The notes beneath the pieces were generated by a model. It made no database searches. It saw nothing but the letters and a program-made list of their open reading frames with translations, and was not told the DNA's origin. Positions 22,934 to 32,040 of a DNA stretch of 64,000 nt are shown piece by piece (positions within the stretch are counted from its first letter, which is position 1; every line of letters begins with the position of its first letter). The translations under genes were made by a program, and so were the position numbers. Origin of the DNA: Actinomycetes bacterium (GTDB taxonomy: Bacteria > Actinomycetota > Acidimicrobiia > Acidimicrobiales > Bog-793); NCBI GenBank assembly GCA_021796545.1, contig JAKABX010000001.1, forward strand, positions 3,977 through 67,976. The letters run 5' to 3'.

Positions 22934-23539
22934 GTGATCGACCACATTCTCCTCGACCTCATCGGGGCAATCCGCGAAGCCCTCGAGGGCGCCCTCCTCG
23001 AGCAGCTCGCCGTCGAGGAGCGCTTCCAGATCGACGTCTTCCTCGGGGACGTCTCCTTCGAGACCTCCTACAGCCTTCCCGGCGAGCAGAGCCCACCGCG
23101 CGTGCGCGCCGACATCAGCCTCGAGTGGCCGACCTGGAGCCAGAGCGCGTACCGCTCCTGGTCGATTGGCGAGTCGCCGGCGGAGCGCCCCGAGGTCGTC
23201 ATCGAGGTCGCGCTCCGGCTCCAGCGCCTCGTCGGTCTGCCCGACCCCGCGGCAGTCCTCGCCGCACTCGGAGAAAGCGTGCCCGAGATCGGCGGCGAGC
23301 GCCTGGAGCGGACCGGACCGACGATCGAGCAGGTCCACCGCGACACCGGCCCGCCCTCGTGCGCGATCGAGATCGCCTACCAGGGCGCCTACCGCTTCGA
23401 CGAGGCCGTCCTCGAGGAGCCCGAGAAGATCGACGAGCAGGTCGCGGGTCTCGCACGCTGGATCGCGTCGGGGCTGGTGCGCCTGGCGGATCTGGACCTT
23501 CCGTTCCTGCCCGCCGAGGAGGACGACGCCGCGGGCTGA
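22934..23539 (+). CDS. acidic hypothetical protein (201 aa)
   Basis: GTG start. Balanced, protein-like composition (MIDHILLDLIGAIREALEGALLEQLAVEERFQIDVF...) with an acidic C-terminus FLPAEEDDAAG. I recognise no family. Confidence 0.55.
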   Translation: MIDHILLDLIGAIREALEGALLEQLAVEERFQIDVFLGDVSFETSYSLPGEQSPPRVRADISLEWPTWSQSAYRSWSIGESPAERPEVVIEVALRLQRLVGLPDPAAVLAALGESVPEIGGERLERTGPTIEQVHRDTGPPSCAIEIAYQGAYRFDEAVLEEPEKIDEQVAGLARWIASGLVRLADLDLPFLPAEEDDAAG

Positions 23540-23700
23540 GCCCGGGCTCCTCGGCTCGCCCCGGAATCCCCGCGCCCGCACCCGGCACAGCCCTGCGGCC
23601 CGCTCGCCGCCCGGAGCGGGGACCCGCCAAAAGCGCCGTTGGGCCCAGCTGCGACGGGCGGCTCGGTGGGCCATGGTCCTGCAGCCATTGCCGCCACGGG

Positions 23701-24132
23701 TCACCCGCTGCCCGGCCGGGGCACGCCCGATCGCGTGCCGCCTCCGCCAAAGGCCGGCTCGCGCGCAAGAGCCGCTCCGTCGGCGACCCAGCCCACCCTC
23801 CCCGGCCGACAGGAGCTGGCGGGCCCAGCGTCGGGCAACAGGATCGGTCCGTCACCGAGGACGACGAGCGGCCGGGGGACGCGGCGCCTTGTCGCCAAGA
23901 TCCTTCGATCGTGATCCACGTCGTTGCGCAGCCGACCGGAGGTGAGGTCCCGGATCACGCGCGCCCGCCAAGGACCCGGCACCCGCTCGAGGCCGCGGGG
24001 AAGCGGGCCGTCGGGTCGGTGCGCGGCGGCCGCCCCAGGGCACACCTGCACCCGCCCGGAGTCGAGCGCCGTGGCGAGCACGTGCGGGCGCGTACGCGTC
24101 GCGAGCCTGCGGACCGACAGGTCCAGGGTCAA
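23701..24132 (-). CDS. hypothetical protein, or the distal part of a frameshifted gene
   Basis: TTG at 24132 overlaps the stop of the upstream frame (TTGA at 24129-24132). MTLDLSVRRLATRTRPHVLATALDSGRVQV...PLVVLGDGPILLPDAG. The codon-phase GC signal is good at 23850-24130 and weak below 23820. Confidence 0.35.
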   Translation of the reverse strand: MTLDLSVRRLATRTRPHVLATALDSGRVQVCPGAAAAHRPDGPLPRGLERVPGPWRARVIRDLTSGRLRNDVDHDRRILATRRRVPRPLVVLGDGPILLPDAGPASSCRPGRVGWVADGAALAREPAFGGGGTRSGVPRPGSG

Positions 24133-24437
24133 AAGCCGGGGCCGTGGACCGCGACCGCGCGCCCCGTGCGGATCGGGGGCAGCGTGACCCGGCAGAGCTT
24201 GCGTCGGGTCGCCATGGCGTCGTGCGCCCGCAGCACCGGACCGATGGCCGTGGCCGCCTCGAGCGCGTCGTCGTGGACGAAGCTGAGGTAGCCGAGATCG
24301 ATGCTGTTCTCGGTGACGTCGAGCGGGTGGCCGTCGAACTGGACGCGGGTCCACGACACCGTGGTCCCGCCCGGCACCCGCAGCTCGGGGAGGCTCCACG
24401 TGGGCGGCGGAGCGTCCGGGTGGTACCGGACGGACAC
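24129..24437 (-). CDS. hypothetical protein, or the middle part of a frameshifted gene
   Basis: Third-position GC is 18-19 of 20 in the sampled 60-nt blocks for this frame. GTG 24437 gives VSVRYHPDAPPPTWSLPELRVPGGTTVSWTRVQFDGHPLDVTENSIDLGYLSFVHDDALEAATAIGPVLRAHD.... No family recognised. Confidence 0.45.
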   Translation of the reverse strand: MSVRYHPDAPPPTWSLPELRVPGGTTVSWTRVQFDGHPLDVTENSIDLGYLSFVHDDALEAATAIGPVLRAHDAMATRRKLCRVTLPPIRTGRAVAVHGPGF

Positions 24438-24826
24438 GGTTGTCGTCGACCTCGAGGACCGGCAAGCTGGCGAGTTGGACAGACCGGGCCTTGCCGCCGC
24501 AGCCGTTCGGCCGGCATCCGGCGTCGGGGGCGAAGCAAGAGCGGTGCAAGTTGCACTCGGGACGGTCGGACTTGACGTGCCCGAACCGGGCCCGGTCGGG
24601 CGCCGAGGCGGGGCACGACGCGCTTTCGGGCCGGCGGCGACGCCAGACCAGCCCGACGCCGCGGGCAGCTTGCGCGGATGCACGGCCGGTCGACGTCTGC
24701 GCCGATCGGGGCCGGGACCGGCGCCGTGGGCAAACCTACCTCGGCGTCTTGTTTCGGGACGACCGTGGTAGCGGTGCCTCCGGCCGGGGCGCTCCCGAGC
24801 GGGAGGCGTGCGTCCGGCGCAGCGTC

Positions 24827-24855
24827 GTGCTCCGTCCGGCGCCGGGACGGAGCAC
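24827..24855 (-). terminator. strong GC hairpin 6 nt downstream of the PfkB kinase stop
   Basis: gtgctccgtccggc / gccgggacggagcac form a 14-bp stem with one bulge. No U-tract, which is common in high-GC actinobacteria. Confidence 0.45.
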
Positions 24856-24861
24856 GTCTTG

Positions 24862-25902
24862 TCAGAGCGGCGTCTTGGCCGTGGCGATGGCCGCGAGCGG
24901 CCGCTCTGGGCGGGCACCGAGATGGCCGATCACCTCTGCGGCGGCGAGCGCGCCGAGCGCGCCGGCCTCCTCGAGATCGGCGCCGTGGGTGAAGCCGTAA
25001 CAGAAGCCGGCCGCGAACAGGTCGCCCGCCCCGGTCCGGTCGACGACCGGATCGATGGGCGCCACGGGCACGTGCAGGACCCCGCCCCCGGCGCCGACGA
25101 GCGCGCCGTCGGACCCGCAGGTCGCCACGGCCACAAGCCCGGGCCGGGCGACCGCCCCGAGCGCCTCCCGCACGCTCGGGACGCCGGCCAGCGCGCAGAT
25201 CTCGGCCTCGTTCGCGAAGACGAGGTCGACCTCCTCGTGCACGAGCCGGGCGAGTGTCGCATGGTGCCGCTCCACCAGGAGGGAGTCCGCGAGGCCGACC
25301 GCGACGGTGTTCCCCGCCCGTCGGCGCGCCTCGAGGATGCGCTCGACGATTGCCGGGGCGTCGGGGAGGTCGAGAACGTAGCCCTCGAGGAAGACGAGCG
25401 CCGCCTCAGCGAGGAGGTCGACGTCGATCCCGCTGCGGTCCAGGCGCCCGCCGACGCCGAGTGCGGTCGCCATCGTGCGCTCGCCGTCGGGGGTGACGAC
25501 GACGAAGCAGCGGCCCGTCGCGGCCTCGCTGTCGGCTTCGTCGACGGGGAAGCGCTCGAGCACGGCACGCACTCCGGACGCGTCGAGGTCGGCGGCGAAG
25601 CGCTCGCCCGGCTCGTCGTGTGCCACGGCGCCGATGAAGGCCGGGGTCCCCCCGAAAGACGCGATCCCGACGGCGGTGTTGGTCACCATCCCGCCGGGGA
25701 CGCGCCGGTGGGTCCCGACGCGCTCCGCGATCCGAAGCGACGTCTCGATGTCGACCAGCGTCATGCTGCCCGGTGGCAGACCGAGCTCGTCGAGGACGTC
25801 GTAGGGGGCGAAGGCCAGGTGGTCCATCAGCGCGTTGCCGACGCAGACGACGTCGATCGGACGCGCGGGGGACGCGTCCGTCCCGTGGGCGAGAGCGCTC
25901 AT
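24862..25902 (-). CDS. PfkB-family carbohydrate/nucleoside kinase (adenosine-kinase-like)
   Basis: 346 aa. VVCVGNALMDHL, GGMVTNTAVG and DRTGAGDLFAAGF (PfkB signature 2). Nucleoside-metabolism neighbourhood. Confidence 0.8.
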   Translation of the reverse strand: MSALAHGTDASPARPIDVVCVGNALMDHLAFAPYDVLDELGLPPGSMTLVDIETSLRIAERVGTHRRVPGGMVTNTAVGIASFGGTPAFIGAVAHDEPGERFAADLDASGVRAVLERFPVDEADSEAATGRCFVVVTPDGERTMATALGVGGRLDRSGIDVDLLAEAALVFLEGYVLDLPDAPAIVERILEARRRAGNTVAVGLADSLLVERHHATLARLVHEEVDLVFANEAEICALAGVPSVREALGAVARPGLVAVATCGSDGALVGAGGGVLHVPVAPIDPVVDRTGAGDLFAAGFCYGFTHGADLEEAGALGALAAAEVIGHLGARPERPLAAIATAKTPL

Positions 25903-25936: not shown

Positions 25937-26461
25937 TCAACCGACGGCGGCGGTGCCCGGGCGCGCCAGGACGCGCAGGATCACTTTGAAAAGGAGCATC
26001 GCCGTGCACGCGACCGCCCCGGGCGCCGGAAGGCACACGGCGCGCGTGGCGGTCACCGTCGCCGTTCCCGCCCGCCGCGCGCGCAGGCGCCGGGCGGTGG
26101 CGCCCCGCACAGGCAGGACCCCGAGCGCGGCCGTCTGGAGGACGCCGGCCGGTCTTGCGACGGGAACCGTCCACATCGGCCCCGACAGGGAGGGGGCGTG
26201 GAGGAAGAAGAGGACCTCCTCGCCCACCCGGACGCAGTAGGTCCGGCCGTTCTGCGCCTGGGTCAGCACCGCGGCACCACCGCCCTTCGGCGGGCGGAGC
26301 ACGACGCAGGCCGGAGTCCTCGCAGCGGGACGCGTCGAGGACGCGCTTGCGGCCCCGCCGGTGAAGGGGCCGACGAGCGATGCCATGGCGAGCGCGGCGA
26401 CGAGCGGGACGCCGGCGCGGCGGTGGGGACCCCGGCGTCCCCCGCGGCGGACCGATCCCAT
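25937..26461 (-). CDS. small secreted hypothetical protein
   Basis: MGSVRRGGRRGPHRRAGVPLVAALAMASLVGPFTGGAASA looks like a signal (possibly Tat-type) peptide. The mature part has 4 Cys and beta-rich segments (TYCVRVGEEVLFFLH, TATVTATRAVC). Family unknown. Confidence 0.5.
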   Translation of the reverse strand: MGSVRRGGRRGPHRRAGVPLVAALAMASLVGPFTGGAASASSTRPAARTPACVVLRPPKGGGAAVLTQAQNGRTYCVRVGEEVLFFLHAPSLSGPMWTVPVARPAGVLQTAALGVLPVRGATARRLRARRAGTATVTATRAVCLPAPGAVACTAMLLFKVILRVLARPGTAAVG

Positions 26462-26569
26462 GGCACCTCCCTCCACGAGGCTACGCCACCGGGCCGACCC
26501 GCCACCAAGAGGTGGGGATAGGCTGCGCGCGGCTCGTCGCGCGGGTGCGGCGAGAGTGCGTGGAGGACG

Positions 26570-29011: not shown

Positions 29012-29022
<11 letters not shown>

Positions 29023-29881
29023 ACGCGTCCCGGTGGCAAAGACCGCCAAGCTCTACATCGCCGGCGCCTTCCCGCGCTCGGAGTCCGGGCGCTCCTACGT
29101 CGTCAACGCTGCGAACGGCCGCCTGCTCGCGAACGTCGCGGCCGCGTCACGAAAGGACGTGCGCGAGGCCGTCGTCGCGGCGCGCGCCGCACAGGCGCGC
29201 TGGGCGGCGGCCACGGCGTACAACCGCGGCCAGGTCCTCTACCGCATCGCCGAGATGCTCGAGGACCGCGCCCCGACCTTTACGGCGGCGGTCGCGGACG
29301 CGGAGGGCTGCGACGACGCCGACGCCCGCGCGCGTGTCGGCGCGACCATCGACCGACTGGTGTGGTACGCGGGGTGGGCGGACAAGATCGCCCAGATCGT
29401 CGGCGGCGCGAACCCGGTGGCCGGCCCCTTCTTCAACTTCTCGCTGCCCGAGCCGACCGGGGTCGTCGGCGTCCTCGCACCCCAGAACTCGTCGCTCCTC
29501 GGCCTCGTCAGCGTCGTCGCCCCCGTGATCACGACGGGCAACGCGGCGGTGGTCGTCGCGAGCGAGGCGCGCCCGCTGCCCGCGGTCGCCTTCGCCGAGG
29601 TGCTCGCGACCGCCGATCTCCCCGGCGGGGTCGTCAACATCCTCACCGGACGCACCGCCGAGCTCGCGCCTGTGCTCGCCGCGCACCGCGACGTCGAGGC
29701 GCTCGACTGTGCGGGGGCCGGGCCCGAGCTCTCTGCCACCCTCGAGGAGGCGGCCGCCGACAACGTGAAGCGGGTGCTCGCGGCCCCCGGCGAGGAGGAG
29801 GAGTGGAGCGCGTCCCCGAGCGTGCAGCGGATGCTCGCCTTCGTCGAGACCAAGACCGTCTGGCACCCGCTCGGGATCTAG
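29012..29881 (+). CDS. truncated aldehyde-dehydrogenase-family paralog lacking the catalytic Glu/Cys region
   Basis: 289 aa. Aligns by eye to the N-terminal ~60% of the upstream ALDH (LPGGVVNILTG vs LPPGVVNIVTG) but ends before any ELGG or catalytic-Cys motif. The start is TTG 29012 (11-nt overlap) or GTG 29033. Confidence 0.75.
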
Positions 29882-30894: not shown

Positions 30895-32040
30895 TCAGGC
30901 AGCGAGCGGGACGTGCGACTCGAGGCGCTCGAGCAGGGCGGTGAGATCCTTGGTCGAGAAGCGCCAGTCAAAGGGCGTGGCGGTCGCGTTGTCGTGCTTC
31001 TCGAAGGCCTCGAGGCGCTCAGCGAGGGCCACCAGGTCCGAGAAGTCGCCCAAGCGGACGACCTTGCGCTGGATGATCGAGAAGACGACCTCGATCTGGT
31101 TCAGCCACGAGGCGTGGATCGGAAGGTGGATCAAGCGCGCGTTCGGCAAGGCCGCCTCCATGCGATCGATCGAGCGCTGCCCGTTGTGCGAGGAGCCGTT
31201 GTCGACGACGAAGAAGACGCGCCGGGCGCTCTTGTAGGGCTCTTGCGACATCACCTTGTGCACGAGGGCCATGAACGGTGCGATGCCGGTCTTGTCGGCC
31301 ACCTCGCCAAAGAGCATGGCGCGATGCACGTCGTAGGCGCCGAGGTAGCAGAGCGTGCCGCCCCGGCGATACTCGAACTCGACGCGGCGCAGGCGTCCCG
31401 GGGCGGTCTCGAGATCGCGGTGGCGGCGCGAGAGCGCCTGCAGCTGGGACTTCTCATCGGCGGAGATGACGTACTCGTCCTCCTCGAGCGGGCGCCCGTC
31501 GAAGAGGCGCTCGTAGAGGTCGAGAACCTGAGCGGCCTTCTCGGAGAAGAGCGGATCGCGGGGGAAGATCCAAGAGCGGTAGCGCCAGGGTTTGATCGCC
31601 GCCGCGTGCAGCCAGCGGCGAATGGTCGAAGAGGAGATCGCCTCGACCAGTCCCTCGGTGACCACCTGAGCGGCGAGCTCGTGGGAGCTCCAGCGCACAA
31701 GGGGCACCTCGCGTCGCTCGGGCGGCTCGCAGGCCATTGCCTTCACGTGGGCGACGATCTCACCGGAGAAGCGCCGCAGGCGGCCCGAACGCTTGCGATC
31801 GCTGAGACCGGCACGTCCCTCCTCAAAGAAGCGCTTGCGCCACTTGGAGACGACGTCGACGCAGACTCTCACTCGCCGGGCGATCTCCACATTGGCAAGG
31901 CCGTCAGCGGCGAGCAGCACGATGCGCGCCCGCACGACGTCACGATGAGCGGCGACACCAGAGGAGGCTCGCTGTTCGAGAACTGCCCGATCACCGTCGG
32001 ACAGCACCACGATGAACGGCGACGAGCGAGGCACCGGCAC
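30895..32040 (-). CDS. IS630-family DDE transposase
   Basis: 381 aa. N-terminal HTH (LANVEIARRVRVCVDVVSKWRKRF), then DEKSQLQAL...FFVVDNGSSH...LPIHASWLNQIEVVFSIIQRK, typical of IS630/Tc1-mariner-like DDE enzymes. Confidence 0.9.
   Translation of the reverse strand: MPVPRSSPFIVVLSDGDRAVLEQRASSGVAAHRDVVRARIVLLAADGLANVEIARRVRVCVDVVSKWRKRFFEEGRAGLSDRKRSGRLRRFSGEIVAHVKAMACEPPERREVPLVRWSSHELAAQVVTEGLVEAISSSTIRRWLHAAAIKPWRYRSWIFPRDPLFSEKAAQVLDLYERLFDGRPLEEDEYVISADEKSQLQALSRRHRDLETAPGRLRRVEFEYRRGGTLCYLGAYDVHRAMLFGEVADKTGIAPFMALVHKVMSQEPYKSARRVFFVVDNGSSHNGQRSIDRMEAALPNARLIHLPIHASWLNQIEVVFSIIQRKVVRLGDFSDLVALAERLEAFEKHDNATATPFDWRFSTKDLTALLERLESHVPLAA

What the first reader, a model, noticed from the sequence alone, without database searches (positions are those of the whole stretch)
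23540..24861. 1.3 kb with coding phase that switches frame at least twice on the minus strand: overlapping small genes or a multiply frameshifted gene
The region lies between the PfkB kinase terminator hairpin and the convergent acidic ORF.

Best minus-strand phase by third-position GC:
- Coordinate class 1 at ~24441-24660, scoring 19/20 GC3 at 24541-24600.
- Class 0 at 24129-24437, scoring 18-19/20.
- Class 1 again from 24132 down to ~23850.

Other observations:
- One frame is open for 345 codons (24735 to 23701), but it is not the favoured frame in the middle third.
- The distal junction is at an A4/T4 run (24131-24134) where TTG and TGA overlap (TTGA). One extra T would fuse the two reading frames (…AVHGPGF-LTLDLSVRR…).
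- The proximal junction (~24437) would be healed by deleting one C (…LEVDDN-VSVRYHPD…).
- The upstream segment is Cys-rich (ECNLHRSCFAPDAGCRPNGCGG). It has no ATG or GTG start in frame, only TTG 24549. A further possible phase change occurs near 24660.

I cannot assign any of the pieces to a known family.
Basis: seen in the sequence. Interest (0 to 1): 0.6.

Follow-up and report, generated by a model that had tools for sequence, protein, structure and literature searches.

The report
Decayed Rieske oxygenase pseudogene, lineage-specific insert
The frame-switching 1.3 kb is the dead remnant of a single KshA-like Rieske iron oxygenase gene that was inserted between two convergent genes in this Acidimicrobiaceae lineage and has since decayed, so it is an ordinary pseudogene rather than a set of small genes or a sequencing error.

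Summary
Minus-strand coding phase switches class 1 -> 0 -> 1 at ~24440 and ~24131.

The pieces are colinear fragments of one ancestral ~340-aa protein with a Rieske [2Fe-2S] domain and a KshA_C catalytic domain.
- The conceptually repaired protein hits 273 proteins. The best (P0002) has E=2.6e-37 in one stretch crossing both junctions.
- A family HMM matches the frames in order: positions 65-117, 117-229, 226-320 and 322-332.
- A frameshift-aware alignment scores 176 bits. It adds a compensated shift pair at ~24610/24589 and a shift at ~23840.

The gene is dead.
- It has at least 5 frame disruptions.
- The N-terminal ~57 residues are undetectable.
- The Rieske His (CPH) is lost.
- The first catalytic His is Tyr.
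- In some strains the second catalytic His is Gln.

It is not an assembly artefact. Five SNP haplotypes from NCBI, ENA and Logan assemblies carry the same 1322 bp with zero indels.

In seven related Acidimicrobiaceae MAGs the PfkB kinase and the acidic ORF end 11-164 bp apart. The whole 1.3 kb is therefore a lineage-specific insertion.

The 102-aa "hypothetical protein" called here in public MAGs is a pseudogene fragment. Interest is low.

The parts
23540..24861 (-). Whole lineage-specific insert between the stop of the PfkB kinase (24862-24864) and the stop of the convergent acidic ORF (23537-23539)
   Evidence: In 7 related Acidimicrobiaceae MAGs the two stop codons are 11-18 bp apart in five, and 105 and 164 bp apart in the other two. 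Here they are 1322 bp apart. By kinase and acidic-ORF identity this genome nests with L015/L016.
24826..24856 (.). Perfect 12-bp stem / 7-nt loop hairpin just after the kinase stop. It lies inside the inserted DNA.
   Evidence: I17. Relatives with 11-18 bp intergenic spacers have no such hairpin.
24616..24825 (-). Upstream flank. The expected ~57 N-terminal codons (P-x-GW...R...G) and the start codon are not recognisable.
   Evidence: The frameshift-aware profile alignment of HMM positions 1-60 scores 14.3 bits, against 11.7±1.6 (max 17.1) for shuffles. Codon-position GC is flat. There are no Pfam hits in any frame.
24589..24615 (-). Degenerate first half of the Rieske motif. TGC CCC (Cys-Pro, class 1) is followed by RLGARPG in class 2, where the family has C-P-H-L-G-A-H-L-G. 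This implies one C lost from a C-run at ~24610 and one C gained at 24589. The invariant Rieske His is now Arg (or Ala in the class-1 reading).
   Evidence: One strain carries a Gly->Ser change at the invariant Gly of this motif (24604).
24442..24588 (-). Segment A (class 1): second half of the Rieske domain, including C-N-L-H (24544-24555) = C-x-x-H
   Evidence: Family HMM positions 65-117, i-E 7.9e-7. tblastn of homologs confirms the frame.
24438..24441 (-).
24132..24437 (-). Segment B (class 0): first half of the catalytic domain. It carries ENSIDLGYLSFVH (24273-24311), where the family has ENSVDxGHxxxVH. The first Fe-ligand His is Tyr. The second is His or Gln depending on strain. Public MAG annotations call this as a 102-aa CDS (24129-24437, P0001).
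   Evidence: Family HMM positions 117-229, i-E 3.8e-19.
24129..24134 (-). One more T restores ...HGPGFLTLDLSV...
23842..24126 (-). Segment C (class 1): second half of the catalytic domain. It includes NDVDHD (23908-23925), whose last Asp aligns with the Fe-ligand Asp (family D-V-x-Q-D; KshA EQD).
   Evidence: Family HMM positions 226-320, i-E 6e-15.
23837..23841 (-). Additional frameshift lesion (GDGPI | ARRWARQ)
23798..23836 (-). Segment D (class 2): C-terminal motif ARRWARQLLSAGE, where the family has Y-R-R-W-A-R-Q-F-Y-P-E
   Evidence: Colinear weak HMM match to positions 322-332. It is included in the 176-bit alignment.
23540..23797 (.). Downstream flank of the insert. It has no periodicity and no recognisable homology. 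The original stop codon is not identifiable, because the class-2 frame stays open into the neighbouring gene.

Best explanation
The region is a unitary pseudogene: the remnant of one gene for a KshA-like Rieske non-heme iron oxygenase, with an N-terminal Rieske [2Fe-2S] domain and a C-terminal KshA_C helix-grip catalytic domain.

- The gene, or a fragment of it, was inserted between the abutting stop codons of two convergent genes. This happened on the branch leading to this Acidimicrobiaceae species.
- It was then inactivated and is decaying neutrally. It carries at least five small indels that move the homologous reading frame class 1 -> 2 -> 1 -> 0 -> 1 -> 2. The N-terminal ~57 codons and the start are lost or unrecognisable. 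Essential metal ligands are substituted.
- The strong codon periodicity of the fragments is a fossil of the former coding frame.

What is shown:
- Homology, colinearity and the lesion positions.
- Presence of the lesions in several haplotypes.
- Absence of the region from relatives.

What is inferred:
- That the event was an insertion rather than repeated loss.
- That nothing functional is made from the region.
- The source of the DNA and the insertion mechanism are unknown.
For: (1) The repaired 354-aa protein finds 273 proteins at E<=1e-3 among 1.84 billion representatives. The best is P0002 (372 aa), E=2.6e-37, 40% identity, in a single stretch covering query 48-310 and so crossing both junctions.

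(2) All ten homologs scanned have Pfam Rieske PF00355 plus KshA_C PF19298. The family profile matches KshA structures 4QDC and 2ZYL over the full length, at E=1e-58 and 7.5e-52.

(3) An HMM built from 107 homologs hits the three minus frames colinearly:
- positions 65-117 in class 1, window 24597-24442;
- positions 117-229 in class 0, window 24443-24114;
- positions 226-320 in class 1, window 24126-23839;
- positions 322-332 in class 2, window 23836-23804.
The frameshift-aware alignment scores 176 bits.

(5) Of 38 family positions that are at least 85% conserved and covered by the remnant, 10 are changed. These include the invariant Rieske His and the 98%-conserved first Fe-ligand His (now Tyr). 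Pfam no longer detects a Rieske domain, and KshA_C scores below its cutoff (21.7 < 23.3).

(6) Assemblies from NCBI, ENA and Logan carry the 1322 bp with 0-4 substitutions and no indel. They fall into five SNP haplotypes.

(7) The three polymorphisms inside the homologous frames are all non-synonymous: Gly->Ser at the invariant Gly of CPHLG, His->Gln at the second Fe ligand, and Ala->Glu. Variable sites number 6 in the 1322-bp insert against 20 in the 11,719 bp around it.

(8) Seven related MAGs have the kinase and the acidic ORF stop-to-stop 11-164 bp apart, with no Rieske remnant. This genome nests among them.
Against: - Segment B keeps a near-perfect coding signature (GC3 0.95) and a GTG start, and gene callers accept it. 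Inactivation may be recent, or B may still be translated.
- No close intact ortholog or donor exists in the searched collections; the nearest is 40% identical. The ancestral sequence, and hence the exact nature of each lesion, is inferred from a distant family profile.
- The shift pair at 24610/24589 rests on a 9-residue motif only.
- Population evidence for relaxed constraint is thin. The 6 observed variable sites compare with ~2.6 expected, and 3/3 non-synonymous is a small count.
- All data are metagenome assemblies, some possibly built from overlapping read sets.
- Insertion versus loss rests on parsimony over a small identity-based grouping, not on a proper phylogeny.
- No mobile-element hallmarks flank the insert.
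Confidence: 0.9

Rival explanations
1. Assembly or sequencing artefact: an intact gene is broken only by homopolymer miscalls at the T4 run and C runs.
For: Two of the lesions lie in short homopolymers: T4 at 24131-24134 and a C-run at ~24610.
Against: - The indel state is identical in five SNP haplotypes assembled by different pipelines.
- Even after repair, the Rieske His and the first catalytic His are missing, and 10 of 38 conserved positions are changed.
- The N-terminus is undetectable.
Confidence: 0.02
2. Three or more genuine small, overlapping or translationally coupled genes.
For: Each segment has its own strong phase. TTGA and stop/start-like overlaps occur at the junctions. A 102-aa CDS is called by annotation pipelines.
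Against: - The segments are colinear parts of one protein family whose members are all single-frame proteins.
- Segments A, C and D have no in-frame ATG or GTG start at the homologous boundaries.
- The 102-aa piece has no homolog other than itself in 5.8 billion clusters.
- Relatives lack the region.
Confidence: 0.02
3. A live gene expressed through programmed recoding, by ribosomal frameshifting or transcriptional slippage at several sites.
For: One junction is a U-run immediately before a UGA stop (GGC UUU UGA C). This superficially resembles shifty-stop sites such as prfB (own knowledge).
Against: - A +1 slip at UUU-UGA leads into the non-homologous class-2 frame. The homologous frame needs a -1 shift on the non-slippery C-UUU-U (read from the sequence).
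- At least five shifts of different sign would be required.
- The homologs are unshifted.
- Metal ligands are lost.
Confidence: 0.01
4. The gene is dead, but the 102-aa middle fragment (24129-24437) survives as an expressed small protein with some new or residual role.
For: It is an intact ORF with a GTG start and GC3 of 0.95. A GAGG lies ~12 nt upstream. The ORF is retained in all haplotypes.
Against: - It is half of a helix-grip domain and lacks the Asp ligand.
- Both polymorphisms inside it are non-synonymous, one of them at the remaining ligand His.
- It lies downstream of a strong hairpin and has no promoter-like site.
- It has no stand-alone homologs.
Confidence: 0.05

Closest known systems
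KshA, oxygenase component of 3-ketosteroid 9alpha-hydroxylase (PDB 2ZYL, 4QDC; Pfam PF00355 + PF19298)
   Same: - The family to which the remnant belongs aligns with KshA end to end (E=1e-58).
- It shares the Rieske C-x-H...C-x-x-H motif, the (E/D)N-x-x-D-x-x-H-x4-H motif and the Q-D carboxylate motif.
- In KshA the Fe ligands are His181, His186 and Asp304 (PMC4064121).
   Different: - Identity is low. Nothing indicates a steroid substrate.
- No KshB-like reductase was seen within ±6 kb.
- The copy here is broken by at least 5 frameshifts. It has lost the first Rieske His and the first Fe-ligand His, and it lacks an N-terminus.
Uncharacterised 'Rieske 2Fe-2S domain-containing proteins' of Actinomycetota and metagenomes (P0002-P0150; Streptomyces plasmid genes such as the one in CP065238.1)
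   Same: They are the direct sequence relatives, with 25-40% identity over ~260 residues, the same length and the same two-domain architecture.
   Different: Those are intact single-frame genes. The nearest, P0002, sits in a different gene neighbourhood.
SxtT / SxtDIOX and DdmC-type alpha3 Rieske monooxygenases
   Same: They are the next-best structural relatives of the family profile (E=1e-33 and 7e-22).
   Different: They are more distant, and the catalytic-domain match is only partial.

Membership tests
KshA-like Rieske non-heme iron oxygenase (functional member) | Sequence homology to the KshA_C catalytic domain | tested here: met
   The family HMM hits segments B and C at i-E 3.8e-19 and 6e-15. 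Pfam KshA_C matches across the junction at E=2e-4, but below its gathering score (21.7 vs 23.3).
KshA-like Rieske non-heme iron oxygenase (functional member) | Rieske [2Fe-2S] ligands C-x-H ... C-x-x-H | tested here: not met
   Cys, Cys and the second His (CNLH) are retained. The invariant first His is Arg (class 2) or Ala (class 1). Pfam finds no Rieske domain.
KshA-like Rieske non-heme iron oxygenase (functional member) | 2-His-1-carboxylate Fe(II) triad | tested here: not met
   The first His is Tyr (ENSIDLGY). The second His is present in the window but Gln in P0152 and P0154. The Asp is retained. Ligand identity follows the alignment to KshA and PMC4064121.
KshA-like Rieske non-heme iron oxygenase (functional member) | One uninterrupted ORF of ~330-370 codons with a start codon | tested here: not met
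   The homologous frame changes at least 5 times. The N-terminal ~57 residues and the start are undetectable.
KshA-like Rieske non-heme iron oxygenase (functional member) | Partner reductase or ferredoxin encoded nearby | tested here: not met
   No FAD/NAD(P)-binding or ferredoxin gene appears among the called genes within ±6 kb. The rest of the genome could not be examined.
Decayed (unitary) pseudogene | Frame-disrupting lesions that are real, i.e. reproducible in independent sequence data | tested here: met
   Zero indel differences across five SNP haplotypes from NCBI, ENA and Logan assemblies. Raw reads were not inspected.
Decayed (unitary) pseudogene | Loss of residues that are invariant in functional relatives | tested here: met
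   10 of 38 positions that are at least 85% conserved are changed, including two metal ligands.
Decayed (unitary) pseudogene | Relaxed selective constraint | tested here: inconclusive
   3/3 polymorphisms in the homologous frames are non-synonymous, against 8 non-synonymous and 12 synonymous in flanking genes. SNP density is 6 per 1322 bp against 20 per 11,719 bp. The numbers are too small for a firm test.
Programmed-frameshift gene | Slippery site leading into the homologous frame, conserved in relatives | tested here: not met
   Relatives are single-frame proteins. The UUU-UGA site would shift +1 into the wrong frame.
Cluster of independent small genes | Each piece has its own start and stop, and stand-alone homologs | tested here: not met
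   Only B has a start. B has no homolog but itself. All pieces map to one protein.

The most novel reading that the evidence does not exclude
The 102-aa middle fragment, or a multi-frame product, is still expressed and has been co-opted as a small protein derived from half of a helix-grip oxygenase domain. This would be an example of a new small gene being born from a decaying horizontally acquired gene.
Probability: 0.04. Interest if true: 0.4.

Novelty: new member of a known kind. Interest (0 to 1): 0.15.

Why it matters
The main value is annotation hygiene.
- The 102-aa "hypothetical protein" deposited for this locus in several public MAGs (P0001 cluster) is a pseudogene fragment and should be flagged as such.
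- The 1.3 kb should not be counted as intergenic or regulatory DNA.
- The locus is a clean small example of gene gain followed by decay in an uncultured Acidimicrobiaceae lineage. A foreign-looking oxygenase gene landed exactly between two abutting convergent stop codons and then accumulated indels and ligand substitutions while keeping a fossil codon periodicity.
- It shows that third-position GC phase plots in high-GC genomes can detect dead genes that standard homology searches with word seeds miss. Searches found nothing; the full HMMER scan found the family.
- No new biology is implied.

Tried and rejected
- Word-seeded homolog search with the repaired protein found nothing, because its 8000 candidates were swamped by low-complexity words. 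With segment B alone it found only itself. The exhaustive HMMER scan was needed.
- phmmer of the repaired protein against PDB found nothing. The family profile was needed.
- NCBIfam gave no hit.
- Rfam gave only a chance-level L31 leader match at 23944-23983 (E=0.92). The promoter/terminator scan found nothing.
- I searched for the missing N-terminus by eye. Candidates were 'GRFAHG', 'LPAASGWSGVAA' and 'GLVWRRRRPESASCP'. The frameshift-aware alignment gave a score no better than shuffled DNA, so I rejected them.
- I looked for mobile-element signatures and flanking repeats. Only short GC-rich matches at chance level turned up, such as the 11-mer CCGGCCGGGGC at 23712 and 24780.
- No paralog or duplicated segment exists elsewhere in the 64-kb window.
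- A JGI metagenome scan with segment B found no relative.
- The contigs carrying the closest homolog P0002 are short and not syntenic.
- The flanks 23540-23800 and 24616-24861 gave no Pfam hit in the ten frames scanned, which include all three minus-strand frames of each flank.

Full report
**Observation**

- Coordinate class 1 is the GC-rich third position from ~24590 to ~24442 (0.90 overall; 19/20 at 24541-24600).
- Class 0 takes over from 24437 to 24132. The values there are 0.95, 0.54 and 0.73 for classes 0, 1 and 2, the textbook GC3/GC2/GC1 pattern of a minus-strand gene.
- Class 1 returns from 24126 to ~23842 (0.86).
- The class-1 frame is open from 24735 to the stop at 23701-23703, with TTG at 24549.
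- The flanks 24620-24861 and 23540-23797 have flat composition and no phase.

**What the pieces are**

Pfam gave the first lead. Segment B alone, and B joined to C, match KshA_C (PF19298). The joined sequence matches profile positions 6-196 of 207 across the 24131 junction, at E=2e-4 and just under the gathering score.

Word-seeded searches failed. An exhaustive HMMER scan of 1.84 billion representatives with the conceptually repaired 354-aa protein returned 273 hits at E<=1e-3.
- The best non-self hit is P0002 (372 aa), E=2.6e-37 and 40% identity.
- It forms one aligned stretch covering query residues 48-310, which runs through both junctions.
- All ten homologs scanned have Rieske PF00355 plus KshA_C PF19298.
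- A 30-sequence family profile aligns end to end with the KshA crystal-structure sequences 4QDC and 2ZYL (E=1e-58 and 7.5e-52). SxtT/SxtDIOX and DdmC come next.

**Colinearity and lesions**

An HMM of 107 full-length homologs was searched against the six frames of 23301-25100. It hits in this order:
- class 1 with HMM positions 65-117, window 24597-24442, i-E 7.9e-7;
- class 0 with positions 117-229, window 24443-24114, i-E 3.8e-19;
- class 1 with positions 226-320, window 24126-23839, i-E 6e-15;
- class 2, weakly but colinearly, with positions 322-332, window 23836-23804 (ARRWARQ against yRrWarqF).

I wrote a frameshift-aware profile-to-DNA alignment. It gives 176 bits for a path from ~24613 to 23798, with shifts at ~24589, ~24441, ~24130 and ~23840. 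Read against the DNA:
- There is one C too many at AAC-C-GTG (24438-24441).
- One T is missing from the T run at 24131-24134 (GGC TTT TGA).
- There is a shift inside GAC GGA CCG ATC CTG TT|GCC CGA CGC TGG (23837-23841).
- Around the first Rieske motif there is a probable compensated pair. TGC CCC (Cys-Pro, class 1) is followed by CGC CTC GGC GCC CGA CCG GGC (RLGARPG, class 2), then by an extra C at 24589, after which class 1 resumes. The family motif there is CPHLGAHLG.

Its suspected shift near 24660 has no support. Nothing upstream of ~24616 aligns with HMM positions 1-60 better than shuffled DNA (14.3 bits against 11.7±1.6, max 17.1).

**It is dead, not mis-sequenced**

Exact look-ups of the two flanking proteins retrieved the locus from three NCBI MAGs, two ENA assemblies and two Logan assemblies.
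- Over 23540-24861 they are 99.7-100% identical to the window with no gap at all.
- They fall into five SNP haplotypes, so they are not copies of one assembly.

Even after repair the protein could not work.
- Of 38 family positions that are at least 85% conserved and covered by the remnant, 10 are changed.
- The changes include the invariant first Rieske His, now Arg or Ala.
- They also include the first Fe-ligand His, now Tyr in ENSIDLGYLSFVH.
- The corresponding KshA ligands are His181, His186 and Asp304, with the cluster bound by two Cys and two His (PMC4064121; alignment).

Population variants add to this.
- The second Fe-ligand His is Gln in two cluster members.
- An invariant Gly of CPHLG is Ser in one MAG.
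- All three polymorphisms inside the homologous frames are non-synonymous.
- Variable sites number 6 in the 1322 bp against 20 in the surrounding 11,719 bp. In the flanking genes 12 of those 20 are synonymous.

These counts are small and only suggestive.

**Origin**

The kinase query places the organism among uncultured Acidimicrobiaceae.
- In seven related MAGs (kinase identity 59-68%), the kinase and the acidic ORF are convergent neighbours.
- Their stop codons are 11, 15, 15, 15 and 18 bp apart in five genomes, and 105 and 164 bp apart in two. No trace of the Rieske gene is present.
- By kinase and acidic-ORF identity, the window's genome groups with L015/L016 inside this set.
- The simplest history is therefore a ~1.3-kb insertion on its own branch, not repeated loss elsewhere.
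- The insert begins directly after the kinase stop.
- I found no inverted or direct terminal repeats above chance, no second copy in the window, and no close donor. The nearest protein is 40% identical and sits in a different context.
- The mechanism and source of the insertion are unknown.

**Rivals**

- Separate small genes are excluded. Homology is colinear to single-frame proteins, A, C and D lack starts, and segment B has no stand-alone homologs.
- Programmed frameshifting is excluded for practical purposes. At least five shifts of mixed sign would be needed. The UUU-UGA site would shift +1 into the wrong frame, the homologs are unshifted, and the ligands are gone.
- Residual expression of the 102-aa ORF cannot be excluded with these tools. 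It has no support beyond the ORF being open.

**Verdict**

This is an ordinary, moderately old pseudogene of a KshA-like Rieske oxygenase, lying in a lineage-specific insert.
- The practical consequence is that the 102-aa CDS in public annotations of these MAGs is a fragment call.
- Interest is low (0.15).
- Novelty is limited to a previously unrecognised, dead member of a known family.

Noticed in passing
window 24129-24437 (= L001:7466-7774; protein cluster P0001/P0152/P0153/P0154): Public MAG annotations call a 102-aa protein here with no Pfam hit and no name. It is the middle fragment of the pseudogene. The two polymorphic residues (His/Gln and Ala/Glu) occur in all four combinations among the four cluster members. 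This suggests recombination or recurrent mutation in the population.
   Followed up: partly
window ~29012-29881 (= L001:2022-2891, minus strand in locus): A 289-aa aldehyde dehydrogenase ORF covers only Pfam Aldedh profile positions 5-234 of 461. It overlaps by 11 nt the end of a full-length 479-aa Aldedh gene. It is followed after 7 nt by the UPRTase gene, so its C-terminal half (the catalytic half) seems to be missing. It looks like a second truncated gene near the Rieske relic.
   Followed up: partly
window ~30895-31902 and beyond (= L001:1-1008): A transposase-like gene (HTH_23/28/29/32 plus DDE_3, 379 aa in the public call) lies about 6 kb from the insert. Its presence fits a neighbourhood with gene gain and decay, but no link to the Rieske insert was shown.
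   Followed up: no
L022:7003-7166 and L014:7021-7125: Two relatives have 164-bp and 105-bp spacers between the convergent stops, where the others have 11-18 bp. The L022 spacer is unusually AT-rich for these genomes. The junction may be a recurrent site of small insertions.
   Followed up: no
window 24826-24856: A perfect 12-bp GC-rich hairpin sits 5 nt after the kinase stop. It is part of the lineage-specific insert and not of the ancestral kinase 3' end, since relatives lack it. It has no T-tract and was not picked up by the terminator scan.
   Followed up: partly
window 22934-23539 (+) and 25937-26476 region (174-aa ORF = L001:5442-5966): The acidic 201-aa protein is conserved across Acidimicrobiaceae MAGs (61-83% identity) and always convergent with the PfkB kinase, yet it has no Pfam family. 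The 174-aa ORF upstream of the kinase also has no Pfam hit.
   Followed up: no
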